From assembly GCF_963921235.1 (NCBI RefSeq), contig NC_086108.1, forward strand, positions 25,916,001 to 25,980,000: a DNA stretch of 64,000 nt. Direction: 5' to 3'. This DNA is from Mobula hypostoma. Its lineage: Eukaryota. This document shows, in pieces, positions 10,151 through 61,536 of this stretch. Below the pieces are notes generated by a model that had not been told where the DNA came from, did not search any database, and saw only the letters and a program-made list of their open reading frames with translations. Both the position numbers and the translations under genes were made by a program. Each line of letters opens with the position of its first letter. The first letter of the stretch is position 1.

Positions 10151-10195
10151 TCTGTCATGCATAGAACCGCATAAACTAAAACAGATCACAAAATT

Positions 10196-25805: not shown

Positions 25806-25890
25806 GGATTTTTCTATCATCCGTGTGCCTACCTAAGAATTTCCTGAGTGCCCTTAATACAATAAGGCACACATTCTACGATTCAGGAAC

Positions 25891-28720
25891 TGTCATTGTC
25901 CGGATCGGGGTCCCTTTAAATTTACCTTGTTTATGTTATGATCCGGACCGTTGATTCCCTGATTTCCCGTGACCCTCAGCTTTGGTGATTAGAGGCAATT
26001 AACGCTCGGCTGAATCGGTAGTTTATAATCTCCGTCTTTCAGCCGTTCGGCGCGCGAGTGTCTGAAAAGTCATCAAAAGTAAAATCTGCCAATGTCATCT
26101 GGCCGAAGCAAACCTAGTCTCTGCCGAAGCGAGTGCCGGTAATTCACCCTTCCTCACCAGAGCAACCCTGTCCAGTTACCTCTCTGAAGCGAGCCTGCAA
26201 AGTTTCCTCATCAAGGTGAGTCCGTCAGTTAACCCGCCGGAGAGAATCAGGAGCCGCTGTCTACTGTTCCTGGGCCGAGTCTGGAGCTCGGCGCTACCCA
26301 GAGGTTCCAAGCACCACGTCCTGGCTCTGGCGGCGTCCAAGTACGACGTCCGCGTCCTGGCTCCGGCGGCGTCCAAGTACCACGTCCACGTCCTGGCCCC
26401 GGCGGCATCCAAGTACCACATCCAGGTCCAAGTCCTGGCCCTGGCGGCATCTGAGTACCAAGTCAAGTCCTGGCCCTGGTGGTCTGTGATTCCTGTCCTA
26501 CCCTCCCTGTCTGAATCCCTTCTCTGCCACTCTCACCTCTAGCCCTCATCTGTAGCCCTCGCCTGCACCTCGGTCTAGTTCTATCGCTGGAGCTAGATAG
26601 GAACTGTGTTGTTCTTTGGTGTTTGTCTTGTCTTGTCCTCGCCTCCGTGGGGTAAGTCAGGCCGTCTTGCTGTTGCCCCGTGGGGGGTCATGTCTTGTCA
26701 TGTCTTGTCCTCACCTCCGTGGGGTAAATCAGGCCGTCTTGCCGTTGCCCCGCGGAGTCTCATGAGTCCCGGCCCTATGTCCTGTACCCAAGGAAGGGTC
26801 CCGACTCTGTGTTCTGTGTATGTGTTCATGGTTCCATGTACCTAATCTCCCCAGACCGAGGCTCTGTTTTCCATGTTCCTCCTCTCCCTAGCCCATATCA
26901 TGTCCATGCCTGGTTCTGGGGTCCGAGCCCGAGGAAAGACCCAGGTACTGGGTCCTTGCCCCATCTCGGGCTCGGAATCTATAGCCTAGCCTCTTCATGT
27001 CTCCTGTAGTTCTGGGAGCCGATTCCGAGTCCAAGCCCAGACCCTTGGTCCCAGCCTAGTCATAGTCCTGATCCTGTTCGCTATTCCTGCTTCTGCTTTG
27101 CTCTCCTGGTATCGAACAATAAACTAAATCTAATTAACCTCACAAGATGTGTCTTGCATTTGGGTTCACACTTGCACCCAATGCTCCCACCATTGTGACA
27201 GAACGCGCTTGCCAAACATGGACCCAGCAGACACAAACTGTTTTTCCAAACTCCTGTCAGCCTGAAAGTCAAGGTGTTGTTCTGTTTTGCCCACTGGCCA
27301 AATCCTCCTCCACCCACCCAGGTCATTGATAATACAGGGAAATCTGTTGGTCGCCTGGAGGCTCCCATTGGGAGGGGGGTACCGTCATGGTCCGGATCAG
27401 GGTCCCTTTAAATTTACCTTGTTTATGTTACGATCCGGACCGTTGATTCCTTGTTTTCCCGTGTCCCTTGGCTTCGGTGATTAGAGGCAATTAATGCTCG
27501 GCTGAACTGGTAGTTTATAGTCTCCGGCTTTCAGCCATTCGACGCGAAAGTGTCTGCAAAGTCATTAAACGTACGGTGTGCCGATGTCATCTGGCCGGAG
27601 CAAACTTAGTCTCTGCCGAAGCGAGTGCTGGTAATTTGCCCTTCCTCACCAGAGCAACCCTGTCCAGTTACCTCGCCGAAGCGAGCCTGCAAAGTTTCCT
27701 CATCAAGGTGGGTCCTTCAGTTAACCCGTCGGAGAGAATCAGGAGCCGCTGTCTACTGCTCCTGGGCCGAGTCTAGAGCTCGCCACTACCCGGAGGTTCC
27801 ATGTACCACGTCCTGGCTCCGGTGGCATCCAAGTACCACGTCCACGTCCAAGTCCTGGCCCTGGTGGCATCCGAGTACAAAGTGAAGTCCTGTCCCTGGC
27901 AGCATCCGAGTACCAAGTCAAGTCCTGGCCCTGGCGTTCTGTGATTCCTGTCCTACCCCACTGTCTGAAACCCTTCTCTGCCCCTCTCACCTCTAGCCCT
28001 CGCCTGTACCTCGGTCTAGTTCTATTGCTGGAGCTAGATAGGAACTGTGTTGTTCTTTGGTGTTTGTATTGTCTTGTCCTCGCCTCCGTGGGGTAAGTCA
28101 GGCTGTCTTGCCGTTGCTCCACGGGGGGTCATGTCTTGTCTTGTCTTGTCCTTGCCTCCGTGGGGTAAGTCAGGCTGTCTTGCCGTTGCTCCGCGGGGGG
28201 TCCTGTCTTGTCTTGTCTAGTCCTCGCCTCTGTGGGGTAAGTCAGGCCGTCTTGCCGTTGCCCCGCGCAGGGTCATGAGTCCCGGCCCTATGTCCTGTAC
28301 CCAAGGAGGGGTCCCAGCTCTCTGTTCTGTGTATGTGTCCATGGTTCCATGTACCTGCTCTCCCGAGACCGAGGCTCTGTCTTCCATATTCCTCCTCTCC
28401 CTAGCCCATGTCATGTCCATGTCTGGTTCCGGGGTCCGAGCCCGAGGCAAGACCCAGGTACTGGGTCCTTGCCCAGTCTCGGGCTCGGAGTCCATACCCT
28501 AGCCTCTTCATGTCTCCTCTAGTTCTGGGAGCTGATTCGGAGACCAAGCCCAGACCCTTGGTCCCAGCCTAGTCGTAGTCCTGAGTCCTTATCCTGTTCG
28601 CTATTCCTGCTTCTGCTTTGCTCTCCTGGTATCGAACAATAAACTATATCTAGTTAACCTCACAAGATGTGTCTTGCATTTGGATCCACCCTTGCTCCCA
28701 ATGCCCCCACCATTGTGACA
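25891..28720 (+). mobile_element. Non-autonomous Tf1/sushi-type LTR element: two ~1.3-kb LTRs and a 182-bp internal region
   Basis: LTR1 25891-27200 (TG...CA) and LTR2 27383-28720. TSD ggaac at 25886-90 and 28721-25. PPT gggaggggggt. Gag start MDPADT. Inserted in a Rex1 3' fragment (ttcaggaac|agcttcttcc). Confidence 0.92.
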
Positions 28721-28969
28721 GGAACAGCTTCTTCCCCTCTGTCATCCGATTCCTAAATGAACACTATCTCACTACTTTTTTAATTCTGCCTTTTCTCTTC
28801 TTTGCACTATTTATTTTAACTGAACAATTTTAATAGACATATATATTTACTTACTGGAATTTGGAATTTTTCCTCTATATTTACTTATCATATATTTCAT
28901 TGTACTGCTTCCATAAAGTTAACAAATTTCACGACATATGCTGGTGATATTAAACATGATTCTGATTCT

Positions 28970-31933: not shown

Positions 31934-34900
31934 AGGTAAAACTAAATAGTATCAGAGAACTGAAGCTGAAGTGGGAGAAGAAAAATGATGAAAGCTATCA
32001 TGGTAATGGAGAACTCACTTCAAATATTTCTACTTTAAACTTTCATTTCCTGTGTAACCACAGGCCATCTTGTGTCCCTTTAGCCCATTCTGATTCTGCT
32101 TCTACACCCGAAGTAACTGAGGAGACTTTAATAGAGCTTTCACAGGCTCCAACATAAAAGACGACTGGCTAAGAGTATCTCAGATCAGTCTGAGCAGGAA
32201 TGTCAGCAGCCCGCAGCCATCTCTCTGAAGCCCACGGGCGTTGCACCATGGAGAGCTAACTGCTAAATGAAGAATTATTATCTGTGTTTGCACATGGGAA
32301 TTTGAAGAAGTTTTTACTTGCCCTGCACAAATGCAATTCTTTTCCATCATATTACCGTTTTGACCATTCTTAGTTGTTGTTCTCTGATGAATATGAGGTT
32401 AATATAAATGGAAGCCGAAGAGCAGGGGTTGGAGTAATGGGGAGGACTGACATGAAAAATAAGGTTGGTTCCAGGATTGTTTATGTCAGTAGCTTTGTGA
32501 CAGACTGTAGGGGGAAAAACACATTCATTGGCACCTTGTGTCTGGACACTGTGAGAAATTGACCTTATCACTCTTCTTCTGTATCTCAACTCCTTCCTAC
32601 TCTCCTGAATTATCTGTGGAGGCTCCAAGCTATCTTGCATGTCCCTCCGCCAAATTCTTGACCTGTTGTACATCCCGTGCAGAAGACAGCAAATGTTAAG
32701 CCACCTGGAGTTACTAAGTGGGGTCTCCTCAAGGGCAGATTGATACCTGTGGCTGAAACCTATCATCGATGGATTAACTTTCAGACAACACAGAGCAGTA
32801 AGAGTTTTTTTTTAAATCTCTTACCGGGTCAGGTCAGATCATCAGGTCAGGAAATGTTGGTGTTTAAAGGGATAAAGGTACTCTTGTATAAACATCAATG
32901 AAAGCTAACATGCAGGTACAATATGCCATTAGGATGAAGGTTCTCAGCCTGAAATGTTAACGATTCATTCATTTCCATAGGTGCTGCCCGACATGCTGAG
33001 TTCCTCCAGCATTTTGTGTGTGTTGCTTTAGATTTCCTGCATCTGCAGATTTTATCATGTTTATGGTGAATTATTTGTTTATCTTTATTATGAGAGGAAT
33101 TGAGTAGAGAATATTATTTGCGGAATATAAAATACGTTCTCTACAGTTTCGAAGAATGAAATCAGATCTCATTGAAGCATACAAACTCCTCACAAGGCTC
33201 AACAGGCTGGATGTAGGCAGGGTGTGTGGAATGAGGAGTCACAGATTCAGAAGAAAGTTTGGGCTATTTAAGTTAGGGATTAGGAGACATTTCTTGAGGA
33301 CATAGAATCTTTAGAATTCTCTACTTGGGAAGACTGTAGAAGTTCCTGCTTTCTACAAGCCTCTACTGTTCCTCTCTCTGTTGGTTGCCTTTCAAATTCT
33401 ACCTTCTCCCTTTTGACTCTGATGTGTAGCTACTGCTGCTTGGACTTCATTGAGGACCAATAAACAGTAGTACCGACACTCATCCTGATAGAGTATATAA
33501 CATAGAGCAAGCAGTACAGCACATAAATCTGTGTGACCTGATTGATCTGATGTGACAGAACAATCTCCAGAATGTACTGAGAAAACCCACAGCAAAAGTG
33601 TTGTGAATCAAATTTTCCCACTGCTGGATAAGAAATTAGCTGCTAGTTCTTACTGTGACTGGCAATTGTCCCCAAGGTGGGCAAAACGCCTTCACTTAGT
33701 ATTATAATCTCAAATCTCAGACAGCTTTGGAAATCCATGAAACTGATGTTAAAATGTGTTGAAATACCGCTCTAATTGAGCAACTAATATATGATAATTG
33801 CCAGCCTGCTGTTCTGAAGGAGTTTGCGTGCATTCATGAGGGAAATTAGTGGGAAGAATCTGGCTTCACAATTGGCTGTCAATTCCGTCAGCTTGTCAGC
33901 CCACCTACATCTGAACTCATGCACTCCTCCACGATAAGATGCAGCTCAGCGTTCCAAACACATTCTCTTGTAAATATGATATAAAGAAACCATGCAACAG
34001 CTGTACTGCTATGTAAAACAGATGTACTGACATGATAAACATAAAATAATAGCTTGGGCTAATAATAAATTCATGAAACATTTATCCATTATGAAAGAGC
34101 AATATTGATTGGACTGCATTTTACGATCATTCTCTTGTCTTAGCTCATCTAGTGTTATAGTAAATTATAACCAAGCCCCCACTTCCTTGAATCCCAACTA
34201 GATAATACACGCAGGCAATTACAACAGTTCTAATGTGTGTCTAATTACTGAGAATGAACAGCTATTATAATTCCCAATGTATCCACAATTCAAACCTGAC
34301 AATCTCACAAGCATCTGGTATTGTACAATAAGCAAATAACTTCATTTGCAAAAGTTATTGACCAAATGGTTTTTATAGTACCCTGAGTTGCACACTTTGG
34401 AAGCAAAGAACTGAGCTTCATTTCATCTTTTGGGAAAGAAAACTATCTGTCAATGGTGAAAGATATGAAGAAAAATTAAATGGGTTGTTGGGATTTTGGG
34501 TACCTAAAGTGTATCTGAAAGAATACAATGAAAGGGTCCCACTGTAGATAGAAATCTGAAATAAAACTGAAAGTGCTGGATCTTCTTAAAACTGATGAAA
34601 GCTCTTTGACCTGAAATGTTAACTCTACTTCTGCCTGATTCATCAGTGCTTCCAGCATTGCCTACATTGACAAGATCTGCTCCATCTCCAAAGGGTTTCC
34701 CATTTATATTATCACTTCATGCTTCACACCTTCATGTTTGTCAGATATCCTCATTGCCATAAGAATCAAAAGGAAATTTTGGAAATGCTCAGCTGGACAG
34801 GCAACAACTTTGGAAGGAGAAACAAGTCCAACAAAGGGTTCAGATGAAGAAGCCTTGACCTGAAACGTTAACTATTTCTCTGTATTTCTAACATTATTTT

Positions 34901-36749: not shown

Positions 36750-39555
36750 TGGGGCATGGCACTTGATCAGAGATAGCGTCTCTGGGAGTTAGATATGGCC
36801 CTTGTGGCTAAAGGGATCAGGGGATATGGAGGGAAGGCTGGTACAGGGTTCTGAGTTGGATGATCAGCCATGATCATACTGAATGGCAGTGCAGGCTCGA
36901 AGGGCTGAATGGCCTACTCCTGCACCTATTTTCTATGTTTCTATGTTTCTATGTGTCACGGCTGCAGAAAATGAGGAAGTCTCCGTGGGTGGAAGTTAGG
37001 AACAGGAAGGAGTCAATAACCCTACTGGGCATTTTTTATAGACCACCCAATAGTAACAGGAACATGGAGGAACAGATAGAGAGACAGATTCTGGAAAGGA
37101 GTAATAATAACTGAGTTGTTGTGGTGAGAGATATAAATTTCCCAAATATTGATTGGCATCTCCCTAGAGTGAGGGGTTTAGATGGGGTAGGTGTGTTCAG
37201 GAAGGTTTCTTGACACAATATGTAGATAAGCCTACAAGAGGAGAGGCTGTACTTGATCTGGTATTGGGAAATGAATCTGGTCAGGTGTCAGATCTCTCAG
37301 TGGGAGAGCATTTTGGAGACAGTGATCACAATTCTATCTCCTTTACCATAGCATTGGAGAGGGATAGGGATACACAAGTTAGGGAATCGTTTAATTGGAG
37401 TAAGGGAAACACTGAGGCTATCAGGCAGGAACTTGGAGGCATAAATTGGAAACAGATGTTCTCAGGGAAATGTACCGAAGAAATGCGGCAAATGTTCAGG
37501 GGATATTTGCGTGTGGTTCTGCAGAGGTACATTCCAATGAGACAGGGAAAGGATGGTATGGTACAAGATCCGTGGTGCACAAAGGCTGTTGTAAATCTAG
37601 TCAAGAAGAAAAGAAGACCTTACAAAAGGTTCAAAAAACTAGGTAATGATATGAATCTATAAGATTAAAAGGCTTGCAGGAAGGAACTTAAGAATGAAAT
37701 TAGGAGAGCCAGAAGGGGCCATGAGAAAGCCTTGGCAGACAGGGTTAAGGAAAACTCCAAGGCATTCGACAAATATGTGAAGAGCAAGAGGATAAGAAGT
37801 AAGAGAATAAGACCAATCAAGTGTGACAATGGAAAAGTGTATATGAAACCGGAGGAAATAGCGGAGGTACTTAATGAATACTTTGATTCAGTATTCATTA
37901 CAGAAAAGGATATTGGCAATTGTAGGGATGACTTGCAGTGGACTGAAAAGCTTGAGAATGTACATATTAAGAAAAAGGATGTGCTGGAGCCTTTGGAAAG
38001 CATCAAGTTGGATAAGTCACTGGGACCAGACGGGATGTACCCCATGAGGGAAGTGAGGGAGGAGATTGCTGAGCCTCTGACAATGATCTTTGCACCATCA
38101 ATGACAGGAGAGGTTCCAGAGGATTGGAGGGTTGCGGATGTTGCTCCCTTATTCAAGAAAGGGAGTAGAGATATCCCAGGAAATTTTAGACCAATAAGTC
38201 ATACTTCAGTGTTTGGTAAGCTGATGGAGAAGATCCTGAGAGGCAGGATTTATGAAAATTTGGAGAGGCATAATATGATTAGGAATAGTCAGCATGGCTT
38301 TGTGAAACTCAGATTATGCCTTACGAGCCTGATTGAATTTTTTGAGGATGTGACTAAACACATTGGTGAAGGTAGAGCCGTAGATGCAGTTATATAGATT
38401 TGATAAGGTACTCCATGCAAGGCTTATTGCAAAAGTAATGAGGCGTGGGATCCAAGGGGACATTGCTTTGTGGATCTAGAACTGGCTTTCCCACAGAAGG
38501 CAAAGAATGATTGTAGGTGAGTCATATTCTGCATGGAGGACGGTGACCACTGGTGTGCCTCAGGGATCTGTTCTGGGACTACTACACTTTGTGATTTTTA
38601 TAAATGACCTGGATGAGGAAGTGGAGGGTTGGGTTAGTAAATTTGCTGATGACACAAAGGTTGGGTGTGTTGTGGATAGTGTGGAGGACTGTCAAAGGTT
38701 ACAACGGGACATTGATAGGATGCAAAACTGGGCTGAGAAGTGGCAGATGGAGTTCAACCCAGATTAGTATGAAGTGGTTCATTTTGGTAGGTCAAATATG
38801 ATGGCAGAATATAGTATTAATGGTAAGACTCTTGGCAGTGTGGAAGGTCAGAGTGATCTTGGGGTCCGAGTCCATAGGACACTCAAAGCTGCTACGCAGG
38901 TTGACTCTGTGGTTAAGAAGGCATACGGTGTATTGGCCTTTATCAATTGTGGGACTGAGTTTAAGAGCCGAAAGATAATGTTGCAGCTATATAGGACCCT
39001 GGTCAGACCACACTTGGAGTATTGTGTTCATTTCTGGTCGCCTCACTATAGGAAGGATGTGGAAACCATAGAAAGGGTGCAGAGGAGATTTACAAGGATG
39101 TTGCCTGGATTGGGGGGCATGCCTTATGACAATAGGTTGAGTGAACTCAGCCTTTTTTCCTTGGAGCAACGAAGGATGAGAGGTGACCTGATAGAGGTGT
39201 ACAAGATAATGAGAGGCATTGATTGTGTGGATAGTCAGAGGCTTTTCCCCAGGGCTGAATTGGCTAGCACGAGAGGGCATAGTTTTAAGGTGCTTGGAAT
39301 TAGGTACAGAGAAGATGTCAGGGGTAAGTTTTTTATGCAGAGAGGGATGAGTGCGTGGAATGGGCTGCCGGCAGTGGTGGTAGAGGCAGAAACGATAGGG
39401 TCTTTTAAGAGACTCCTGGATGGCTGCATGGAGCTTAGAAGAACAGAGGGCTATGGGTAAAGCCTAGGTAGTTCTAAGGTAGGGACATGTTTGGCACAGC
39501 ATTGTATGCCAAAGGGCCTGTATTGTGTTGTATGTTTTCTATGTTTCTATGTTTC
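36750..39555 (+). mobile_element. CR1 LINE ORF2 (endonuclease end, RT, 3' UTR); a second CR1 3' end is nested at 36781-36953
   Basis: GVPQGSVLG, KFADDTK and LVRPHLEYC motifs, (tttctatg)n tail. It splits a minus-strand Rex1 tail (36660-36750 and 39555-40170). Confidence 0.93.
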
Positions 39556-42989: not shown

Positions 42990-43315
42990 ATGGAAATAGA
43001 GAGAGAGATAGAAAGAAATGAGAGAGAGAGAGAGAGAGAGAGAGAAGGAGAGAGAGGAGAGAGCCAGCAAGACGGAGGGAAAGGGAGAGAGAGGGAAGGG
43101 AGGGGAGAGTGAGTGAGAGGGAGGGAGAGGACAGAGAGAGAGGGAGAGAGACAGAGAGAGAAGGAGAGAGATTGGAGAGTGAGCGAGATGGAGGGGGAGG
43201 GAGGGAGGGAGAGGAGAGAGAGAGGGAGAGAGAGAGGAGAGCGAGTAAGAGGGAGGGAGAGGGAGGGGGAGGAGGGAGGGAGGGAGGGTGAGAGAGAGAG
43301 AGGAAGAGAGAAAGC
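42990..43315. repeat. GA-rich polypurine microsatellite
   Basis: About 320 bp almost entirely G and A. Confidence 0.95.
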
Positions 43316-44456
43316 AAAATATTACTGACATTCACACATTAGCATTAAACGGTTTTTTTTGTGTTTGAGCTCAGAGCCTTTAGAAAATTCAACAGGCAAA
43401 AGCTGAAAACTCTCACAAATGAGGCTGAATTGTTTGTGTTCATATAGCACTGCATGACAGATTGGGGTGAGCTTATTTTGAGACAAATGACGGTCCTTGG
43501 AAGATTATTAAATTTATAGTTCCATCTAAAATGTATCTCACAGTGAGTTGATAGTTCTATTGAAATTATTATTGCATCCTAATTTCTCACAAAGTGTAAC
43601 CCACTGCAAGTTGTCTTTGACCACTTGGAATGTAATTCAATGATGCTTTTATGAGAAATTTATTAAATCTCTCCCATATTTGACACTGGAAGGGGAGAGA
43701 GCTGTAGTTTATAAGGAATGTATCAAAAACATAGTGGGGATCAGGTAGGGAGAGAGGAGCATGAAACAGCCTTAGAATAAAAGAAAATCTAAATTTATAA
43801 TTGCTCATGACAAGTGGAGTTTTGCTTGAAGTAAGAACTCCCATCAAAGAGGATAATAGAGTCAAGGGGCAGTGTGGCCTGGTCAGTCCTATGCCCCATT
43901 AGCGTCTGGGATAGTGTGAACGATATTCAAGCTATAGCTAGTAACAACATTTTGAAATATAAGGAATATGATGGATGTCCTTGCACCAATGACTACATTG
44001 AGATTACCGTAATCTGTTGCTCTCAGGTATTTCATCACAGAATAAGAAATTCCTCTTTATTGATTTACAGATCATCTGCACAGATGGTGGTAATTAGTAG
44101 CTTGTAAGCACAGGTAGGCCGGGGAGATAAGAACATTGTTGCTCTGGTCAGATTGCCGTTCCTTCCTATGTATTTGTTTAAACCAGAGGAAATTATTTCA
44201 ATTTCATTTTGTTCCTGTTGGAGTTTATTTTCCTCTGTACGTTGAATGATATTTTGAGAATGATAGACAGTTGCAATGTTTGCATAAGTATAAAATGCAC
44301 ATTCCAATGAATGACTTCTGAGAGTCTGCAAAAAAACTCAGCAGAAAATGTTCTGTAGCAAGAAAACTGTAATAAAGCTGTTGTCTCTTTTCCAGTATCA
44401 GATGAAGGGATCAAACACAGTTTCATGCATTTTTTTAAAGAGTCCAGTGATACAGG

Positions 44457-45168
44457 TTTAGCCCCCCTGGCCAGCCTCAGGGTCACTCAGCTCACTGTCG
44501 TCTAGGGAAACAGCCCTCGGCCCCGCCAAACTAGGTAATAGTTTGTGTGGATGCTGTGTGATGTACCCCATCCCGCCCAACTAACAGACAATGCACCAGA
44601 TATGATTAAATGATTTACGGTTTATAGATATTACTGGAACCATATAATTAATAGAGAATAAAATATAAAATAAAAATAAAAGGCGCCACACTTATCAAAG
44701 TTCAATCTCTTCGTGCACAAACAGTTGGAGCTCAGGAACCTCCTTCTTCACTCTGCGACCCCTCGAACCACTTTGACCTGCCGCCTGGGACCAACAACGG
44801 TGAGCGAACAGATGCTCCACACAAGTCTGTCTCCGTCTCCTCTCCTTGCCGAACACCCTAGACCTCGGAATCCTGTTTGGGGTCCGACCCCGTTAGCGGA
44901 CTCACAGCACCTGGTTCATCCTCTGACTCTCTCTCCCGCCTTCTGCACAAAAACCCGCGCATCACACTAATTTACAGACACACAGAAAGAATAACATCTA
45001 TCCCAATTGGTGTGTTCATCCTCTTATCAGTAACATGATCCAAACAATCTACTAGCAGGAGGACTTTCTCAACAGTTAACATAACAAAGAAGCCATTTCA
45101 ATTATAGCATAACAAAGAAGCCATTTTAATTAGACTACGCAGTGACATAAAAGAAGAAACCCCTTACA
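44457..45168 (-). mobile_element. Solo LTR
   Basis: Absent from the homologous right arm. Minus strand begins tgtaagggg; the other end is decayed (tttagcccccc on plus). 4-bp TSD cagg/caga. Confidence 0.75.
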
Positions 45169-45394
45169 CAGATAAAGGTAAAGAATGTTGAGTGCAGATT
45201 AACTGTGAGTGTCAGTTCTGAGACATACATCCAATCCCAGAGTAGGTGCCACGGTAGTGTAGCAGACAGTATGATGCTATTACAGCACAGGTTGTTTCGG
45301 AGTTAAATAACGATGCTGTTCTGTAGAGAGTATCTCCTCCCTGTGATTGGTTAATAGCTCAATTGTAAATTGTCCTGTGATTAGGTAAGGGTAA

Positions 45395-45560
45395 CAAACA
45401 AGAGGAAATATGCAGATGGAATCCAAAGCTAGGCTCACAAAATGCTGGAGGAACTCAGCAGGCCAGGCATCTTCTGTGGAAAAGGGTCCTGACGAAGGGT
45501 TTCTGCTTTTCCATAGCTGCTGCCTGGCCTGCTGAGTTCCTCCAGCACTATGTGTGCATT
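45395..45560. mobile_element. Palindromic Penelope-derived element inside a SINE remnant
   Basis: gctggaggaactcagcaggccaggca...gtcctgacgaaggg...tgcctggcctgctgagttcctccagc. Confidence 0.7.
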
Positions 45561-47823
45561 GCTTAGGTTAGATGTAATCGAGTTTGCCGGGGGTTGTTGT
45601 ATTGCGAAATAAATAAAGAAATAAATAACTCTACCAAGTAAGTAAGCTTTTTTCACTGCAAAAGGTATGAGCAAACACTATGGCCATGGAAGTAAATACA
45701 ATAGAGACGTTTAATGAATTTCAGCAATACCCAGGAATGGAAGGATATTGAGCATGTGCAAGCACAAGGAATCAGTTTAATTAGGCATCATTAGCTTAAT
45801 TGATTCAGCACAAAATTGTAGACCAAAGGACCTGTTTCTTTGCTCGATGTTGTATGGTTTATGTTCTGGCTCTGAAGCACAAGTCTCATAAATGAACCCA
45901 GTTGAATAATGCTTTACTCTTATTTGATATGAACCTAGTGCAGTACTTTTTACATTGTAAAGTGTTGTTGAGTGACATTTCATCAGATGTTGTTCTAATA
46001 TTTCACTCATGTCATTTATCTTGTTGAACTCTTAATGGCAAAATGATAGGAAGATGGGTAAGAATTTGCATATTGTCAATAAAGCTGATGAATGATCCCA
46101 TTTGCAGTTCACAATAACAGGTTTCACATGTTGAGTTATGATGAGCAGGGTCAGAAATGAATCTCTTATTGGTTGTATGTCTCAGAACTAACACTTTCAT
46201 CTTGTCAGTTAAACTGCACTAAACATTCTTTACCTTTATCTGTATCATGGGGCTCTTAAACGAAATGCATGAAACTGTGTTTGATCCCTTCATCTGATAC
46301 TGGAAAAGAGACAATAGCTCAAATATGGTTTTCTTGCTACAGAACATTTGCCGCTCAGACTCTCAGAAGTCATTCATTGGAATGTGCATTTTATATTTAT
46401 GCAAACATTTTGACTGTCCATCACCCTCCAGATATCATTCAACATACAGAGAAAAATAAACTCTAACAGGAAAAAAATGAAATGGAAATAATTTCCTCTG
46501 GGTTTATACAAATATGTAGGAAGGAATGCCAATCTGACCACAACAGTGCTCTTATCTCCCCAGCCTACCTATGTTTGCAGCAAGCTACTAATTACCACAA
46601 TGAATTTCTTATTCTGGGGTGGATCCAGTAGCACTTACATCAACAGTGATGGAGTGTTTTGAGGGGTTGATGATGAAATATGTCAACTCCTGCCTGAGAA
46701 GCAACTTGGATCCGCTCCAATTTGCTTACTGGAGCAACAGGTCCCCAGCAGATACCATCTCGTTGGCTTTTTATTTACTCCTGGAACATCTAGACAGCAA
46801 AGGTGCATAAATTAGAATGTTTTTTATGGACTAAAGCTTGACATTCAATACCATTATCTGCTCAAAACTAATCAATAAGCTTCAAGACTTTGGCCTCAAT
46901 AAATCCTTGTTCAATTGGATCCTCAATTTCCTCACTTGCAGAACACAGCCTGTTCAGATTGGCAATAACATCTCCTCTACAATCTCCATCGCCATTAGCA
47001 CATGCACACCATGAGGTTGTGTGTTTAGCCCCCTGCCTTACTCACTTTATACTTAGGACTGTGTGGCAAAGTGCAGCTCCAATACCATATTCAAGTTTGC
47101 TGATGACACTACTGTCATTGACGGAATCAAAGGTGGTGATGAATCAGCATACAGGAGGGAGATTGAAAATCTGGCTGCATAGTGCCACAGCAACAACCTC
47201 TTACTCAATATCATCAAGACCAAGGAGCTGATTATTGACTTCAGGAGGAGGAAACCAGAGGTCCATGAGCTAGTCCTTATTGAAGGATCAGAGGTGGAGA
47301 GCATCAGCAACGTTAAATTCCTCAGTGTTATCATTTCAGAGGACTTGTCCTGGGACCAGCATTTAAGTGCAATTACAAAGAAAGCACGGCAGTGTCTCTA
47401 CTTTTTTAGGAGTTTGCAAGGAATTGGCATGACATCTAAAGTTTTGACAAACTTCTAAATAAGAGTGATGAAGAATATATTGACTGGCTGCATCACAATC
47501 TGGTATGGAAACACCAATACTTTTGAATAGAAAATTCTACAAAAAGTAGTGTATGTGGTTCAGCCATCGCAGATAAAGCCCTCCCCACCATTGATTATGT
47601 CTACATGAAGTGTTGCAGAAAAGCAGCATCTATCATCAGGGACCCCCACCACTCAGGTCATGCTCTCTTCTTACTACTGCCAACAGAAAGAAGGTACAAG
47701 AGCTACAGGATTCACACTGCTAGGTTCAGGTACATTTTTTATCCCTCAACCATCAGGCTTTTGAACCAAAGAGGATAGCTTCACTCAACTTTACTAGTCC
47801 CATCACTGAACTTTTCCCATGGG

Positions 47824-48594
47824 TGTCATGGCCCGGTCCGTGAGGTCTGCATTCTGGTTCACGGTCTGGTCCAGCGATTCCTTATTCCGGGTTTTCCTGT
47901 TTTCCCTTGTTCCACTTGGTGCCTTAATTGAGGCACCTGATTCTCATTTTGGGTTGGCACATAAATACCTCTCAAACCAAGGATTCCCTGCTGGACTATT
48001 CCCTTCCCCTTCCTTCTGAAGCCCTGTCAAGTTCAACCGCCGGAGTGAGACTGCAGCCTTGCCACGCCAATATAAAGAACAATCTATTGTTGAGTTTGGA
48101 ACTATCTCTTTGTGTCCCCATGTTTAATGTCCGTGTCTAAGAAGAGTTCCGGCCCTAGGTCCTGTTCCCAAGGAGGGATCCTGACTCGGTGTAAAGCCCC
48201 GGCCCTAAGTCCTGTTCCCAGGAAGGGTCCCAGCTCTGTGTTCTGTGTTCCTGTGCTCCAAGTTCCATGCGCCATGTTCCAGACCTGTCCAAGTCAAGGC
48301 TTCATGTTCTCATCCAGTCCGGGAGTTGCTCATCCAGTCCAGGAGTCCCTCGGCAGTTTACCTTGGCAAGTGTCCTCGGCAGTCATCCCGGCCCTGCGTC
48401 CTAGAAAGGGTCCCATGTTTCTAGTCCAAGTTCTAGCCCAGGCCCTGAATCTTAGTCTCGTCCAGGGCCTGTGTCAATGTCCAGCATCATTTTTTCCTTA
48501 TTCACCTTGCTATCTCAATAAACCTAGTCCTGTTCCTAGTACTTCAGTGTCTGTGTCTTGCGCTTGGGTCCACTCCCAACGTCCCCTTATGACA
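47824..48594 (+). mobile_element. Solo LTR
   Basis: tgtcat...atgaca termini, aataaa near the 3' end, 5-bp TSD atggg at 47819-23 and 48595-99. Confidence 0.9.
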
Positions 48595-48807
48595 ATGGGC
48601 TCCCTTCCAAGGACTCTTCATCCCATGTTCTTGATACTTATTGCTTATTTTTTCCTTTTGTATTTTCACAGTTTGTCATTCTTAGCACATTAGTTGAACC
48701 CAAGCTGATGTGGTCTTTCATTGATTCTGTTATGGTTATTATTCTATTATAGATTTATTTAGTATGCCTGCAAGAAAATGAATTTCGGGGTTGTATATGG
48801 TTTCATA

Positions 48808-50492
48808 TCTCTATACTACTAAAACTCTCATGCTCTGTCTGCCTGTTTGTCTGTTTGTGACCTCCAATTAGCATAAACGGTACATTACAGCCACACTTTT
48901 TTTTGGCTAAATCGAATTAAAATATGCTAACCTATAGAATGCAGGCAAAGTTCAGGGTTATATATTCATATAAAATTGCTCATTCACCCAAAATTAACAG
49001 GCTCGCTTTCACCTGAGAGCTGATCCGCCATCACAGACATTTGGACGCGACAGCCCGATGCATGCTCATGGCCAGCCTAAGCAGCGACACCTACCGGAGC
49101 AAAAGGGCAGGGCAGCTCTATTTCGAGGGATCACATTCTGCTAATCACCATCAGCATGTGCAGGATTGGGACAGATCTACTTGCCACCCATCAATAAGAG
49201 ATAATTAAATCTTATTGTAATGACGTACTTCGAGACACCGTGCACAATTCTGATTTGATGGAGACAGACGTGAGAGTACGGAGGAACATTTGGAGAAACT
49301 TCTGAAATGCCCACTTTACTGCCTCTGCTACTGTGTGGTAACCAGAATCTCTGGAGCAGAAGGCTCCAAATCCTCGGCTTTGCTTGTTTCAGCGGCCTGG
49401 GCTAGGTCGAAGGCGCTCAGCAGAGGATGGTGTTCGGGAGACTGTATCGGAGGGGCTGGTCAGAGGCTAGAAGTTTTCAGATGGACGGACTCAGTGTCGG
49501 CTGCTTCCAAGGCATCGGCAGCTGTCGGTGCCTTGGAGGTTTATGGCAGGGAGTCTCTCCCTTTTGCCGCCTGCTATCAGGGTCTCAGGAGTCGACCGGG
49601 ACTTGAGACTTTTTTTTACCGTGCCCATGATCTGTTCTTTATCAAATTATGGTATTGCTTTGCACTACTGTAACTATATGTTATAATTATGTGGTTCTGT
49701 CAGTGTTAGTCTTTGGTTTGTCCTGGTTTCTGTGGTATCACTCTGGAGGAACATTGTATCATTTCTTAATGCATGTATGCATTTCTAAATGACAATAAAA
49801 GAGGACTGAGTGTTCTCATAATCTAATCTAATAAAACCCTTTGCTGCAGTCAAAGGATAGTGGTGACTTTATCATGTCCATTTAGGAGAGCACCAACCAC
49901 ATCATCAAGAATAATCAGCATCCTTTGGTTCATATCTTCTGTCCAGCATTAGGGTAAAAAAAAATGGTCAGCCTAATTATGCCGCGTGGAAAGGGAAGCG
50001 GGACATTATGGTCAAGAGATGACGCCAAATGTTGTCAGGAAACTGCAAGGAGAGAGAGAGAACAAGAATCGGATGAGGCCAGGGCCGCACGACTCCAGGA
50101 TCAAAGAGTCAGGACAAAAAAAGATGAGGGAAGAAGAGGCAGAGGAGGAGAGGCATGCACGTCTCCAGGATCAGAGACAAACAACAAACAGCAGAAGAGA
50201 TGAAGAGATGAGGAATGAAAGGGCTGCACATCTCCATAATGACAATGAGAGGCACAAGGGTGGCAGATAAACCAGAAATGATGCCATCAAAATTGTCCTT
50301 CGTAAAATGAGGAGGAGCTATATTTGCTTTGCTACGCGTTGTTCTTCTTTAATAAACTGAGGTTTTCTACTTCAGTTTACAAAGCAAAGTGATACCAATA
50401 GCATTCAGGAAAATTTAATGTTCATTCTGGTCACATCAGACTGCACTACCATTCCTTCAAAGGGTGCCCCAATGGGTCACCCCACTGTCTAG
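48808..50492 (+). mobile_element. Non-autonomous Helitron with STPR-like repeat remnant
   Basis: 5' A|TC(TC)TATACTACTAAAA. 3' hairpin gggtgccccaatgggtcaccc (50462-50482) then CTAG (50489-92). No TSD; the host LINE tail is continuous across it. Repeats ESDEARAARLQDQR and EEERHARLQDQR. Confidence 0.82.
49232..49831 (+). mobile_element. Non-LTR-type repeat (SINE or LINE 3' end) inside the Helitron
   Basis: Ends in gacaataaaa...(aatct)n tail. The 5' boundary is uncertain. Confidence 0.55.
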
Positions 50493-51243
50493 CATGTACT
50501 TAATAGTAAATTTACTTTGAACTTTGAAACACCTGCAGTGAGAGATAACAGTAACCTCAGTGTAGTCATTGGTACTAGGTAGACATCATTTTCCTTACAT
50601 CTCTTGATGTTTGTTAGTAGCTGTATCTTGAATATAATTCACGCTATCCCAGCCACTAATGGGGCATAGTGAGTGGTGACTGACCAGGCCACACTGCCCC
50701 TTGGCTCTATTATCCTCCTTGCTGGCAGTTCTTACTTCAAGCATAACCCCACTTGTTATGAGCAATTATAAATGTAATTTTTCCTTTGTTCTCACGCTGT
50801 TTCACACTCCCTTCTCTATGTGTATAGAGGCTGACAAACATTAGCACAGATGTAAGAAAATAATCCAGTAACTTTTAGCATTACATCCAGTGTGATTTGT
50901 AGAGTTCTGTGTTTGTGAATATGAAATGAGCTGAGTTTCACACTTTTTATATTAAAAAGAACTGAAGGCAGAAATGTCACCATTTCAAACAACTTTAATC
51001 TCGGTCTATAGAAGTAGACAGTGCATTTAAAATGGAATATAGAACACCCATCTATGAGGCTGGAATGGTTGCTGCTAACATTAATCTTTTTATTTATTCC
51101 ACAACATTTTGTCGGCTTTTCCTTTCTGACGACTTGATCAGAGACATTACATTATGTATTGTTGATTGTGGGCTAGGCACTTCATCACAATTGAAGCTGC
51201 ACCTGTGGGATAACCTGCACAATGATCATTGAGAAACAATACC

Positions 51244-53090
51244 AAAGTTCAAAATAAAAAGTAAATGTATTACTAATGTACATGTATGTCCCCATATACA
51301 ACGCTGAGATTTATTTTCTTGTGGTCATTCACAGTAAGTACACAGAACATAATGGATTTAATGAAAGACCACACCCAATAGAATGGACAGATAACCAATG
51401 TGCAAAGACAAAAGAAAGAAAAATAAAAAAATATATGTAATTATTAGGTGGGGGTCTGTTCACTGTCTGTTCTCCAAGTTAGGAAAATTCAGACACATCT
51501 GTGCCCAGATTGGGTGGTGTTCTGCTCAGCGTCTGTTCTCCATATTAAGGGCAGCTGAAACTAAAGCCTGCCTGTAGATATAAAAGGTAATACCCTTTCA
51601 CTTTAGAAATGGAGAGATGTCTACCGAATACAGTGATACAGCCACTGCCTGGGCATCACTAGGGCATGCCTGAAGCCAGCGCAGGACATGACAATAAGCA
51701 AACCACTAGTGGTGCACTGCTGAATAGACGGGCAGACCCCAGGAAAGCCCAAAAAGATGCTGCCAACATTCAAATTTGCCCACCGACACCACAGGCTATG
51801 ACTGCTGCAAGTGTTTTTCAGGGGAGCAGTCCACCTACAACTGTGAGCACTCAAGCAGTTAAGAGAAGAAAGACATGCATGAAATGGTCATTAGAATTAA
51901 GCACATTCATAATGCGTGTACATTACTGAGTAACCGAACTTGACACTGACATGACAGGATACAGGGAAAACTTCATCAACAATTACACAGTAATATCTAT
52001 GTCAGTCTTCAGAAAGCCACAGTAATAAACGCTAGTAGAATAATCCAAAAGTTCATAGCAATTGACAAATGAGCGTGCTTGGCTCTGCCTGTATCTCAGT
52101 TTTTACCAGCTTGAGCTGAGAAAAAAAAAATAATAGTACAAAATAAGCAATAAATTTTGAGAAGATGAGATAAAGAGTCCTTGAAAGTGAGCCCACTGGT
52201 TGTGGGAGCAGTTCAGTGATGTAGTGAGTGAAGTTGAGTGAAGATATCCCCTCTAGTTCAAGAGCCTGGTGTCTGAGGAGTAATAACTGTTCCTGAACGT
52301 TATTGTGGGTCCTGAGGCTCCTGTGCCTTCTTCCTGATGGTAACAACGAGAAGACAGCATGGTCTGAGTGGTGGATGTCCTTGATGATGGATGCTGCTTC
52401 CCTGTGACAGCACTCCATGTAGATGTGCTCTGTGATGCGGGGGGGTGGGGGGGAGGACTTTACACATGATAGATTGGGCTGCATCTACTTTCTTTGTCGG
52501 TTTTTCTGTTCAAGAGCATTGGTGTTTCCATATGAGGTTACAAATCAACCAATCAATATACTCTCCACCATATATCTATTGAAGTTTGTCAAATTTTATA
52601 GATGACATGCCAAATCTTTGCAAACTTCTAATTATGTAGGGGCATGGCCATGCTTTCTTACATGGTAGGCCTAGGACAGATACACTGAAATGATACCACC
52701 GAGACATTTAAAGTTGCTGATTCTCTCTACCTCTGATTCCGAGGGCTGGCTCATGGATCTCCGGTTTCCCCCTCCTGGTCAATAATCAGCTCCTTTGTTT
52801 TGCTGACATTGAGTGAGTGGTTGTTGTTGTAGCACCACTCAGCCAGATTTTTGATCTCCCTCCTATATGCTTATTTGACACAATCTTTGATTCGACCAAT
52901 AGCAGTGGTGTCGTCAGCAAGCAAAAATGGCACTGGAGCTGTGCTTAGCCTCACAAACATAAGCATTAAGTGAAAAGAGCAGGGGGCTAAGCACCTAGCC
53001 TTGTGGTTCACCTGTGCTGATGGAGATTGTGGAGGAGATGTCGCTGCCGATCCAAACTGAATGAGGTCTGCAATTACAGACCAGGAATCT
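51244..53090 (-). mobile_element. Rex1/Babar 3' fragment, split by the R4-type insertion
   Basis: aaagttcaaa tail. ORF 52053..52484 ECCHREAASIIKD...FSLLPSGRR; LADDTT. Confidence 0.8.
51447..52135 (+). mobile_element. Internally deleted Dong/R4-clade non-LTR element
   Basis: N-terminus from ATG 51609 (PLPG...RRKTCMKWSLELSTFIMRVHY*VTELDTDMTGYR) is joined to the C-terminus IYVSLQKATVINASRIIQKFIAIDK* (stop 52070-72). Short UTR, A10, taata. Confidence 0.68.
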
Positions 53091-55503: not shown

Positions 55504-57123
55504 GTAAGCGTCATTCAGTGTGCAACAGCAGTCAATGCTGAGCTTGCAAATGTTCAATCCAATGCATGACGCTGCCGTGACCAATCTCAGCACACTGAAG
55601 AATGGTACATGGCTTAAATGAAAACACACTTGAGCATTTCCCGTGCCTAGATAATCACTGACAACAAAGCAAAATCAAATGATTCAGAGGGTGGAGAAGA
55701 CCACAGTCAGTGTGGATTGGAAACAACATCTCTCGCTGACAATTAACAACAGTGCTCCTCAAGGATGTGTACTCAAGAAAAGCATTATTAAGAACACCCA
55801 CCACCCAGGACATGTCTTCTTCTCATTCCTACTATTAGAAATGAGGTACAGACGTGTAAAGACACACACTCAGCATTTTGGGAACAGCTTCTTCCCTTCT
55901 GCCATCAGATTTCTGCATGGACAATGAACCCATGAACACTACCTCATTATTTTTGCTCTCTTTTTCACCACGTATTTAATTTTATTTATGTATGTATGTA
56001 AAAATACCTGATTCTGATTCTGAAAATCACTTTTTGGCTTTCACAGCCTTGCATCTATCATGCTCCACAGCCATACAAGAAGTTTGTGATGGCCCAGCAC
56101 TAAGTTCTGAAGCTCCAGTGATTGGATAGGTAATGGAGCAATGATCTACTGGCACTCAACTGCTAGCAAGCTCAAAATGAATGATCATATTTGGTTGACA
56201 GACCTGAGCCACAGGACTCTCTGCATTTCTGTCCTTGCTCTGTACTTCAGTATCAGGCCCCTGCGTTATCTGAGCAGGACTCTGCTCATAATGAAGAGAC
56301 ATTTGAACACACGGATGGAATATCACTGGTTCTGCAGAAGATAGACAAGTTTCCATTTACTTTTCCACTGGTCTGCCAGAGTGTGCACCAAGGAACAAGT
56401 CCATTTAAGAGGATTCTGAGGTGATGGGACAGGAATAAATGAATCATGCATAACCAAAGAAGTTAAGGAGGATATGAACAGGAGAAAAGATACAAAGCAA
56501 AATTTAGTGCTAAGTTTAATTCAATGAAAGAAAAGTAAAAAATAACCATGGAGGAGAAAATCAATCATGAGAACAAATTAGAATTTATCCTCAAAGAAAA
56601 TAATGCTAAGATAACACTTATTGCAAATAAGAAAATGAGAAAGGTGTTAAACAGATTTCAATCCTTACAGTCCACAAAAGCTTCACTGGGGTGATGGCAA
56701 GTTTGGAAGGATTATCCCATGAGCAAAGATTAAGTGAGTTGGTGAGATATGGAGGTGTTCTCCTCATGATTCGTCATCTCCTGCTTTCAGTCAGACTGAG
56801 TTGACGGTACACTCACCAGCTAACTCTGCAACTATCTCACAATAGCATTCCAATCATGGTCCTCACCTGTATCCTCTAGGATACTGTAAATGAAGGAAGC
56901 CATCTTTCATTGTGCCTCTACATCAGATTCCCTGTACCTGGTTCCAGACTGCACTCATCTAGTAGCCTGTGCAAGTCACTCTCTTCCTCCCACAGAGATG
57001 GTTATTGTGGGTGTCAGGTGCAATGACTCACTTTGGTCATAATTCTCATTGTTCCCCTCCTCCTAATCCCACCCCCACTTACCCCTGTCACAATCATCTT
57101 CTGATTCTTGTGCTTTGTATGGT

Positions 57124-57625
57124 TGTTGTTGTTCGTCCATCGTTGACGTCGATGAAGACCTCGACACCATTATGATGGTGTCAAGACTAGCGCGTGATTT
57201 GGATTTAAGTGAGGGAGAGTTGTGCAGCGTCAGCCTCACTCTCTCTTCCCAATTCCCATCTGGGTCCAGTGGCAAGACAGAGTCTAGACGGCTGGAGATG
57301 GGGCTAGGCGCAGTGGATGACCAGGACATCTTCTGTGTCTTGTCCTGCTCTACACGTTCCACAATGCTTGCAGAGACCGCCTTCTTGACCCTTGGACCTT
57401 CCATTGGTCTCGTCCGCTCAATCCGCCGGAGTCTGTCTTCACATGCTGGGATAGACAACTCCCTATCTCACCGAGGGTTTGAGACCCGTCGGCTACCCTC
57501 ACCTGGTTTAGCTGGCTTGTCGAAGCCATTGCCCGGGGTGTGGCCGCTGTCGCATGCAAACAGCTACGGGGAGCCACAGGTGAGAGCTGAGTGCCAGGTG
57601 GGGACCAAAGGTGGACTAAATGTGA
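57124..57625 (-). mobile_element. RTE-derived non-autonomous element / SINE
   Basis: (CAA)n tail on the minus strand, 12-bp TSD gctttgtatggt at 57112-23 and 57626-37, GC-rich body. Confidence 0.72.
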
Positions 57626-57654
57626 GCTTTGTATGGTAGTGTCCCACTCAAGGA

Positions 57655-60194: not shown

Positions 60195-60615
60195 GGTAGC
60201 CTCCAACATGATAGCATGAATATCGATTTCCTTTTCCTGTAAAAATGTTTTCCCTCCCCCTCCCATCTTCTTCTCTTCCCCATTCTGTCCTCCTACCTCT
60301 TCTCATCTGCCTGTCACCTCCTCCTTCTCATTCTTCTATGGTCTACTCTCCTCTCCTATCAAATTCCTTCACCTCCAGCCTCTTCCCTACCCACCTGGCT
60401 TTACCTATTCCTTCTAGCTATCCCCCCTCCCTTTCCCTTCCCTCACTTTTTTATTCTGGTGCCTTCCCCCTTTCTTTCTGGTCCTGAAGAAGGGTCTCAG
60501 CCCGAAATGTCGACTGTTTGTTCATTTCCATGGATGCTGTCTGATCTGCTGAGTTCCTCCAGCATTTTGTTTGTGTTGCTTTGGACTTGCAGCATCTGCA
60601 GAATTTTTTTGTGTT
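60195..60615 (+). mobile_element. Penelope 3' end with hammerhead motif, inserted in a minus-strand HE1 SINE
   Basis: GSLQHDSMNIDF (endonuclease end), pyrimidine tract, then gguc-CUGAAGA-agggucucagccc-GAAA-U-GUC/gacug at 60480-60516. Confidence 0.8.
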
Positions 60616-61536
60616 TACATATTTGGGATGTGGTAGGAAACCGGATCACCCGGAGGAAATCCATCCAGGGAGAATGCGCAAACACCACATAGACAGTGTA
60701 CGAGCTCTGAATTGACCATGAGTCTCTGGTGTTAGAAGGCAGTGACTCTACGAGCTGCCCACTACACTTTTAGAACTGAAACTCCAAAGCTCATTTCCTA
60801 TGTTATCTTGCAAAGCCTTGCCACTTCCCATGTTCTATCATTCAAAAAATAAGTTCTGACATGCAAGGACTCGCCACCATTTGTTTTATTGGTTCTCTCC
60901 TTCCAACCCTTGCACCCTGACCAACTCTTCATTAGGCAGAAGATACAAAAGTCTGAAAGCACATACCACCGAGCTCAAAGACGGCTTCTATCCCACCTTT
61001 TGAACAGTCGCCTGGTATGATGAAATGTGCACTTAACCTCACAATCTATGTACTTCATTGTTGCCTTACACTTTATTGCCTGCCTGCATTGCACATTCCC
61101 TGTTAAAAACGTCACTCTGCATTCCGCTATTGGCCCTCTTCGCACTTTCTCAGTGCATTGATGTGATGAAATCACCTGCATGGATGACATGCAAAACAAA
61201 AATACTTGCTGTATCTCCGTACAATAGACTATGATAAACCAATTTACCATATTTACCAATTTATTTTACAATCATCCTCAGTGTTTCTGCTTCAGATTCA
61301 GAATCAGAATCAAGTTTATTATCACCGGCATGTGATGTCAAATTTGTTAACTAAGCAGCAGCAGTTCAATTCAATACATAATTTAGCAGAGAAAAAAATA
61401 ATAAATAAAATAAAAATAATAATAATAAATAAACAGGTAAATTAATTGCATACATATTGAATCGATTTTTAAAAAAACATGCAAAAAGAGAAATACTGTA
61501 TATTAAAAAAAAGTGAGGTGGTGTCCAAAGACTCAC

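What the first reader, a model, noticed from the sequence alone, without database searches (positions are those of the whole stretch)
43750..50818. Hidden ~0.8-kb inverted duplication of apparently non-TE sequence
Seen: after removing a solo LTR from the left arm and a LINE/LTR/Helitron stack from the right arm, the arms align collinearly in inverted orientation around a ~930-bp spacer. They are visibly diverged with indels, but two blocks are identical: 52 nt (44381-44432 vs 46263-46314) and 40 nt starting TATAAAA (44289-44328 vs 46356-46395). Inference: local constraint or gene conversion on a duplicated regulatory or exonic unit, or else the long TIRs of an ancient fold-back transposon.
Basis: partly seen in the sequence, partly recalled or inferred. 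Interest (0 to 1): 0.7.

Follow-up and report, generated by a model that had tools for sequence, protein, structure and literature searches.

The report
Old two-copy inverted duplication, patchily homogenised
A 770-base piece of non-coding DNA was copied once, in reverse, about 930 bases away, long ago; the two copies have mostly drifted apart and collected transposons, with signs that in one related species one copy partly overwrote the other, which is a known process and shows no function here.

Summary
With a 712-bp solo LTR and a 3.9-kb LINE/LTR/Helitron-like stack removed, the arms align inverted at 628 of 720 columns (87.2%) around a 932-bp spacer; the 52- and 40-nt identical blocks are exact. 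The arm is not a transposon family: contigs of four organisms give at most two arm versions per place, while 45 bp of the LTR drew thousands-fold depth in the window's own species. No target-site duplication, arm tandem repeats or transposase were found. Both arms with their flanks exist in two relatives, so the duplication predates those splits. The identical blocks exceed chance only modestly (P 0.02-0.05 for the 52-mer, 0.002-0.005 for both, 0.2 by window scan). In relative D the arms collapse into one 110-bp contig that covers the stretch between the blocks and ends inside them (chance about 0.0002-0.02): inter-arm gene conversion. Constraint is not shown: arms are no better conserved than the flank and the blocks vary in relatives. 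But the window species' own blocks look ancestral rather than freshly converted, so a slowly evolving core stays possible. Ordinary kind; low interest.

The parts
43750..44456 (+). Left arm, outer and middle part (non-coding, two-copy)
   Evidence: copy number
44289..44328 (+). 40-nt block identical to rc 46356-46395; starts TATAAAA; no CpG
44381..44432 (+). 52-nt block identical to rc 46263-46314; no CpG
44308..44417 (+). Span over which the two arms of relative D collapse into one 110-bp contig (inferred conversion tract in D)
   Evidence: table 8, records 24, 26, 27, 28, 29
44457..45168 (.). Solo LTR, 712 bp, flanked by CAGG/CAGA (3 of 4 match); high-copy family in the window's species; absent from D's left arm
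   Evidence: tables 2 and 7
45169..45235 (+). Left arm, inner part
45236..46167 (.). Spacer, 932 bp; holds a dispersed hairpin repeat (45396-45567) and a dispersed repeat fragment (45698-45936); no Pfam hit
46168..46621 (-). Right arm, inner part; lacks 11 nt (left 44329-44339) and 31 nt (left 44053-44083), both present in D's right arm
   Evidence: records 26, 27
46622..50526 (+). Insertion stack in the right arm: decayed LINE (46622-47823, 48600-48807, tail 50493-50526) with nested LTR and Helitron-like element; LINE junction also present in D
   Evidence: table 7
47824..48594 (.). Second solo LTR, TGTCAT...ATGACA, 5-bp duplication ATGGG
48808..50492 (+). Helitron-like element: TC start after A, 3' hairpin then CTAG (next base C, not T; hairpin z -1.6)
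   Evidence: end rules recalled
50527..50816 (-). Right arm, outer part; carries an 8-nt insertion relative to left 43888, shared with right arms of D and G
   Evidence: tables 4 and 7

Best explanation
A single old local inverted duplication of about 770 bp of single-copy non-coding DNA. Shown: two arm versions per genome; both arms with their own flanks in relatives D and G; later lineage-specific decay and transposon insertions (LINE before the split from D, solo LTR and two right-arm deletions after it). Inferred: it arose when DNA synthesis switched to the opposite strand about 0.9 kb away, copied about 770 bases backwards and returned, and has no function that needs both copies. Because the arms are close and still over 80% alike, one arm occasionally serves as repair template for the other: strongly indicated in D (110-bp identical tract, right-arm type), suggested in C. 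The two identical blocks in this window are CpG-free stretches that kept the ancestral state in both arms; they are best read as the long-run tail of uneven neutral divergence, possibly helped by older conversion.
For: Copy number: summed contig depth over the arm 4-13 against 4 on the flank in the own species, 13,183 on the LTR start; at most two arm versions per place in all four runs (tables 2, 8). Age: right outer flank seen as loose end at 43749 in D and G, left flank joined to the arm in D and G, LINE junction in D, empty LTR site with left-type letters in D (table 7). Conversion in D: records 24 (left, depth 5.75) and 26 (right, 6.73) end at 44337, record 27 (110 letters, depth 10.3) spans 44308-44417, records 28 and 29 start at 44388; D's arms differ by at least 22 of 270 just upstream; chance of a run >=110 is 0.005 at that divergence, 0.0002-0.018 for 7-11%, and 0.002-0.023 for the 52 inter-block bases alone. 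At 4 of the 4 listed sites in that tract where G's arms differ (44342, 44368, 44369, 44374) D carries G's right-arm letter. No arm-level constraint: arm 35/517 vs flank 17/400 differences to C, 41/444 vs 11/204 to G. Conversion works mainly above 80% identity and falls with distance (PMC3924818, passages).
Against: Three of D's four right-type sites are CpG positions and could be parallel changes. Relatives were seen only as low-depth contig pieces with mismatch counts, not as sequences. The arms lack the roughly 200 bp of unbroken identity that makes conversion efficient (PMC3924818), and conversion fades as duplicates diverge (10.1101/135152, passages). The origin mechanism is untested: no outgroup without the duplication was seen.
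Confidence: 0.6

Rival explanations
1. The duplication caught a cis-regulatory element; a 100-150-bp core (44289-44432) is under moderate purifying selection in both copies, and its high identity in turn seeds conversion there.
For: Both arms kept the ancestral state over 92 bases where about 12 differences are expected at 12.8% (post hoc P 0.002-0.005). D differs from the window's left arm at about 1 of 58 block bases against 9 of 52 between the blocks (partly inferred). Identity tracts of A, C and D overlap the same region. Inner part less diverged than outer (50/428 vs 54/304 events, P 0.024).
Against: The D contrast is largely built in, since the blocks were chosen for having no arm differences; 1 in 58 is compatible with D's own rate (P 0.05-0.48). 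Arms differ inside the blocks in C (44304), D (44307, 44418) and G (no shared 31-mer across 44212-44414). Arm no better conserved than flank. Window scan not significant (P 0.20). A 712-bp LTR was tolerated 24 bases from the 52-nt block. No host gene found in the window (343 of 358 frames scanned).
Confidence: 0.2
2. Same duplication, but purely neutral drift with no exchange between arms; D's 110-bp tract and this window's blocks are both chance or contig-graph artefacts.
For: Single-run P values are only 0.02-0.05 for the 52-mer; four genomes were looked at; contigs are low depth (3-10) and simplified.
Against: D's node has the exact two-in, two-out form with 30-letter overlaps and about doubled depth; P 0.005 at the lower bound of D's arm divergence; C shows a single contig over 44335-44441 and a mixed-type contig further out.
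Confidence: 0.1
3. The arms are the long terminal inverted repeats of a very old fold-back or Mutator-like element of which only this copy is still recognisable.
For: Form fits: long inverted arms round a non-coding middle; fold-back elements can have few complete copies (three for Tetris, PMC4079207, passages).
Against: No third version in four genomes at >=80% likeness, no 3-10-nt direct repeat at the outer ends, no tandem repeats in the arms, no transposase in arms or spacer, whereas a Tc1-type relic elsewhere in the window did hit. Copies under 80% alike would have been missed.
Confidence: 0.06
4. The arm is a duplicated exon-bearing fragment (66-nt exon from acceptor-like TTTTCCAG at 44396 to donor-like AAG/GTAAAG at 45177) of a gene or lncRNA, kept in one orientation.
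For: Acceptor-like and donor-like signals are visible in both arms (sequence); a 36-codon frame from an upstream ATG is open in both.
Against: LTR inside it in the left arm; donor-like GT reads TT in D's left arm (table 7); 4 synonymous vs 6 non-synonymous codons; no Pfam hit.
Confidence: 0.04

Closest known systems
Non-allelic (interlocus) gene conversion between nearby duplicates (Mansai, Kado and Innan 2011, PMC3924818; Harpak et al., 10.1101/135152; passages read)
   Same: Short tracts of a few hundred bases or less copied between paralogues over 80% alike, favoured by short distance; lineage-specific identical patches.
   Different: Here the paralogues are 770-bp non-coding inverted arms at about 8-13% divergence, near the limit where conversion fades; evidence is from contig graphs, not sequences.
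Mammalian X/Y palindromes (PMC8327919, passages read)
   Same: Inverted arms round a spacer, shared between species, open to arm-to-arm exchange and spacer inversion.
   Different: Those arms are 8-140 kb, up to 99.99% identical, and mostly carry protein genes; these are 0.77 kb, 87% identical, interrupted by transposons, with no gene found.
Template-switch inverted repeats, four-point model (PMC5453318, passages read; PMC8604942, abstract only)
   Same: A reverse-complement copy of nearby DNA creates an inverted repeat with a spacer; later switches can homogenise arms and invert the spacer.
   Different: The events described there are short mutation clusters; this copy is about 770 bp from about 930 bp away, and the pre-duplication state is not available.
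Fold-back transposons (Tetris, Galileo; PMC4079207, passages read)
   Same: Long inverted arms round a non-coding middle.
   Different: No 8-10-bp TSD, no tandem repeats in the arms, no dispersed copies, position shared with relatives.

Membership tests
Fold-back / Mutator-like transposon | Long terminal inverted repeats round a middle domain | tested here: met
   770-bp arms, 932-bp spacer
Fold-back / Mutator-like transposon | 8-10-bp target-site duplication | tested here: not met
   No direct repeat of 3-10 nt for left ends 43735-43755 and right ends 50811-50831 at matching offsets; decay with age cannot be excluded
Fold-back / Mutator-like transposon | Dispersed copies or fragments in the genome | tested here: not met
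   At most two versions per place in contigs of four organisms at >=80% likeness; LTR control strongly positive; no third match in the window
Fold-back / Mutator-like transposon | Tandem sub-repeats in the arms | tested here: not met
   TRF score 30 on 43700-46700: four short A/T rows, none in an arm; outer right arm covered only at score 50
Fold-back / Mutator-like transposon | Transposase relic in the middle or an autonomous partner | tested here: inconclusive
   No Pfam hit in spacer or arm frames scanned; non-autonomous copies need none; no genome held to look for a partner
Duplicates under non-allelic gene conversion | Lineage-specific tract of arm-to-arm identity longer than divergence allows | tested here: met
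   D: 110 bp, P 0.0002-0.018
Duplicates under non-allelic gene conversion | Letters of one arm type found in both arms of one species | tested here: inconclusive
   D has G's right-arm letter at 4 of 4 listed sites in the tract, 3 of them CpG positions; G's left letter is not printed
Duplicates under non-allelic gene conversion | Species-specific changes shared by both arms inside the window's own two blocks | tested here: not met
   None among 40 of 175 rows shown (table 3); about 4-6 expected for a recent event
Sex-chromosome-type palindrome | Arms of many kb with >99% identity | tested here: not met
   0.77 kb, 87.2%
Sex-chromosome-type palindrome | Location on a sex chromosome | not testable with these tools
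   No genome held
Conserved non-coding element | Lower divergence than neighbouring DNA across species | tested here: not met
   Arm 6.8% vs flank 4.3% (C), 9.2% vs 5.4% (G); neither difference significant. Block-level test inconclusive
Conserved non-coding element | Open chromatin, CAGE or reporter activity | not testable with these tools
   No such data available
Template-switch duplication | Outgroup with the unduplicated state defining the switch points | not tested
   D and G carry both arms; no unduplicated relative was laid

The most novel reading that the evidence does not exclude
A sub-kilobase, gene-free inverted repeat older than several species splits whose core is a duplicated regulatory element kept alike in both copies by selection, and which thereby acts as a recurrent conversion and inversion hotspot: independent homogenisation of the same 140 bases in three lineages, and in relative C a crossover between the arms that flipped the 6.9-kb interior.
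Probability: 0.12. Interest if true: 0.5.

Novelty: new member of a known kind. Interest (0 to 1): 0.25.

Why it matters
As it stands it is a clean small example of an old inverted duplication with arm-to-arm exchange at about 8-13% divergence, near the limit where conversion is thought to stop; useful as a natural test case in a slowly evolving lineage, and a warning that identical blocks between paralogues need not mean function. It would matter more if the core proved to be an active enhancer or promoter kept in two convergent copies, or if the interior were shown to flip between species.

Tried and rejected
No whole genome is held for this window, so copy number rests on one laying of contigs. 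Run search: no RNA holder listed; this is no evidence on expression. Exact-pattern scans: 0 matches in metagenome and viral contigs for patterns of the 52-nt block; 2 matches for a 19-mer of the 40-nt block, both limited to the pattern itself, so chance. Rfam at E<=1 on 43000-51500: 6 matches, all below gathering score, 5 on the spacer hairpin repeat, none in an arm. Pfam: 343 of 358 stop-free frames of 42 aa or more outside self-matching repeats, plus 37 of 110 shorter frames around the locus, gave no host gene; hits at or above the curated cut-off were a Tc1-type transposase (4488-4763) and ALKBH8_N in the LINE relic; frames of the outer right arm were not scanned themselves, only their left-arm counterparts. 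A sushi-domain-like reading of YQMKGSNTVSCI (recalled resemblance) had no Pfam support. ESM Atlas gave no usable hit for the frame at 57066-57467. RNA fold of the inner arms plus spacer only shows the expected arm pairing, with no shuffle control. Parts without contig cover (for example D over 43350-43594, the right arm over 43948-44036 in all runs) prove nothing. Earlier-finding look-ups near the place, by sequence and by words gave nothing.
Full report
OBSERVATION. The self-comparison of the window finds three inverted matches that line up as one pair of arms: 43750-44034 with 50816-50525, 44084-44455 with 46601-46240, and 45154-45235 with 46257-46168. Removing the insertions gives 628 identical of 720 ungapped columns (87.2%) with 12 indel events (cut one base off, gave 627 of 719 and K2P 0.14). 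The spacer is 932 bp. The two identical blocks are exact and cannot be extended: 52 nt at 44381-44432 and 40 nt at 44289-44328. The spacer holds two dispersed repeats, at 45396-45567 and 45698-45936.

ARE THE BLOCKS MORE THAN CHANCE? Modestly. Shuffling the differences along the alignment gives a longest run of 52 or more in 2.4% of 100,000 trials, a second run of 40 or more in 1.1%, both in 0.2%; the mean longest run is 33. Holding CpG columns fixed (22 of 30 differ) or shuffling only the inner part raises these to 3.8-4.9%, about 2% and 0.5%. A scan for the cleanest 100, 150 or 200 columns is not significant (P 0.69, 0.20, 0.24). Neither block has a CpG.

COPY NUMBER. No genome is held. A run search with the left arm listed 22 runs: four of the window's own species (organism A, 92-93% of 75 words), twelve of seven other organisms with 4-13%, and six added by species label. 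I laid 4 of the 22 (A, C, D, G) on 43350-44500 at 80% likeness. In A summed depth is 4 on the flank, 4-13 on the arm and 13,183 on the first bases of the LTR; the same last bin reads 525, 44 and 6 in C, D and G. The tool warns that summed depth is no copy number, so the count rests on the pieces: apart from overlaps at contig ends, no run shows more than two arm versions at any place (31 of 343 pieces listed, the longest; the depth bins leave no room for many more). With no TSD, no tandem repeats in the arms and no transposase, the fold-back reading fails the features given for Tetris (PMC4079207, passages).

AGE AND HISTORY. D and G each have one contig joining the left flank to the arm and another whose loose end at 43749 matches the window's right outer flank (table 7). 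D also has the LINE junction, and a left-type inner end with no LTR. So the order is: duplication, LINE insertion, split from D, then the solo LTR. The 11-nt deletion of the window's right arm is absent from D, G and the one C contig there, and the 31-nt deletion is absent from D. Differences to the window's left arm are 60/743 for D-left, 41/429 and 23/203 for G-left, 23/344 for C, against 12.8% between A's arms. Earlier unchecked notes call this genome a devil ray; slow substitution in sharks and rays (recalled) would make the event tens of millions of years old.

EXCHANGE BETWEEN ARMS. In D, the left contig (depth 5.75) and the right contig (6.73) both end at 44337; one 110-letter contig of depth 10.3 spans 44308-44417; two contigs start at 44388, one with left-type inner letters (table 8). 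These 30-letter overlaps are the form two copies take when identical over 44308-44417 and different at 44307 and 44418; A's contigs show the same form at its known block edges. D's tract covers the 52 bases between A's blocks, where A's arms differ by 8 substitutions and an 11-nt gap and where D differs from A-left at 9 listed sites, and it ends inside both blocks. D's arms differ by at least 22 of 270 bases just upstream (36 differences of D-right to A-left, 14 listed as shared with D-left; my count). A run of 110 then has P 0.005, or 0.0002-0.018 for 7-11% divergence; even granting invariant blocks, 52 identical bases have P 0.002-0.023. At the 4 listed sites in the tract where G's arms differ, D has G's right-arm letter; three are CpG positions. 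In C two versions merge at 44305 into one contig that alone covers 44335-44441 (depth 8.7; collapse or a missing arm cannot be told apart), and another C contig has a right-arm letter at 43792 and 481 unlike letters beyond 43762, yet lacks the right arm's 8-nt insertion and the LINE. That could be a crossover, a long conversion or a contig chimera; its loose end was not printed. G's two contigs run unbroken over 44212-44414, so its arms share no 31-mer there. Conversion mostly needs over 80% identity and falls with distance (PMC3924818, passages); mean tract about 250 bp in humans, fading with divergence (10.1101/135152, passages).

RESULTS AGAINST MY READING. If A's blocks came from a recent conversion in A, both arms should share A-specific changes. 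None of the 40 rows shown (of 175) lies in the 92 block bases; such rows would be among the best supported if ranking follows summed depth, which is my inference (it fits the count of 23 places for A when 24-26 letters at alignment ends are dropped). At A's branch rate of 4-6.5%, none is expected with P 0.003-0.025. So A's blocks look ancestral in both arms, which leaves chance (0.002-0.005), older conversion, or slower evolution, with comparable weight.

CONSTRAINT AND CODING. The arm is not better conserved than the left flank: 35/517 vs 17/400 to C, 41/444 vs 11/204 to G (P 0.11, 0.12). The blocks are not invariant: arms differ at 44304 (C), 44307 and 44418 (D) and at least once per block in G. 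D's roughly 1 change in 58 block bases fits its own rate (P 0.05-0.48). The TATAAAA and the acceptor- and donor-like signals round a 66-nt stretch are visible, but the LTR splits that stretch in the left arm, the donor-like GT is TT in D-left, and the open 36-codon frame differs by 4 synonymous and 6 non-synonymous codons. No Rfam family lies in an arm. No host gene was found: 343 of 358 longer frames outside self-matching repeats and 37 of 110 shorter frames at the locus were scanned against Pfam; small exons could be missed.

MECHANISM. Most likely (0.6): one templated reverse copy of about 770 bp made from about 930 bp away by strand switching during replication or repair (inferred; compare PMC5453318, passages), followed by drift, transposon insertion and occasional arm-to-arm conversion (indicated in D, suggested in C). 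Rivals: constrained regulatory core 0.2, drift without exchange 0.1, lone fold-back relic 0.06, duplicated exon 0.04.

KNOWN KINDS AND NOVELTY. It works like a miniature, decayed version of the X/Y palindromes but is not one (arms 8-140 kb, up to 99.99%, mostly with genes; PMC8327919, passages). Seven literature searches (listings of 1-20 papers each) showed no title or abstract start about this locus; the library lacks most subscription papers and no supplements were read. 10.64898/2026.09.05.749481 and PMC8604942 were seen as abstract and outline only. Verdict: a real, previously unremarked locus of a known kind; interest 0.25.

Noticed in passing
window 44457-45168: The solo LTR's family looks greatly expanded in the window's species: summed contig depth on its first bases 13,183 against 525, 44 and 6 in C, D and G.
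   Followed up: partly
record 17 (organism C), laid on 43762-44105: Contig with a right-arm letter at 43792 and 481 unlike letters further out, but without the right arm's 8-nt insertion or LINE: possible crossover that inverted the interior, or a chimera.
   Followed up: partly
window 43350-43755: The left flank is somewhat better conserved than the arm (4.3% to C, 5.4% to G; not significant); it might hold a conserved element itself.
   Followed up: partly
window 3722-5538: Tc1/mariner-type relic: transposase hit at 4488-4763 (Pfam HTH_Tnp_Tc3_2, E 1.9e-12) between inverted ends 3722-3906 and 5374-5538 (75%).
   Followed up: no
window 9893-11566: Weak gag, protease and integrase Pfam hits in order, all under the curated cut-offs: a decayed LTR-retrotransposon interior.
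   Followed up: no
window 57066-57636: Overlapping stop-free frames of 134 aa (minus) and 190 aa (plus), no Pfam hit, no usable Atlas hit for the minus frame; unexplained.
   Followed up: partly
window 25886-27210 and 27378-28730: Two adjacent direct copies of a 1.3-kb repeat, 82% alike, with internal 36- and 72-nt tandem units; a short match to the LTR at 48195-48285.
   Followed up: no
window 45396-45567; also 7803-8204, 8402-8581, 14048-14294, 32933-33079, 60470-60622: A dispersed hairpin-forming short repeat that gives sub-threshold microRNA-like Rfam matches.
   Followed up: no
window 45245-45295: Sequence resembling the head of a tRNA-derived SINE right at the inner end of the left arm (recalled resemblance; only one match in the window).
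   Followed up: partly
window 13838-15114 and 36978-38011: Two 85-86% alike LINE copies, one interrupted by a hairpin repeat at 14048-14294.
   Followed up: no
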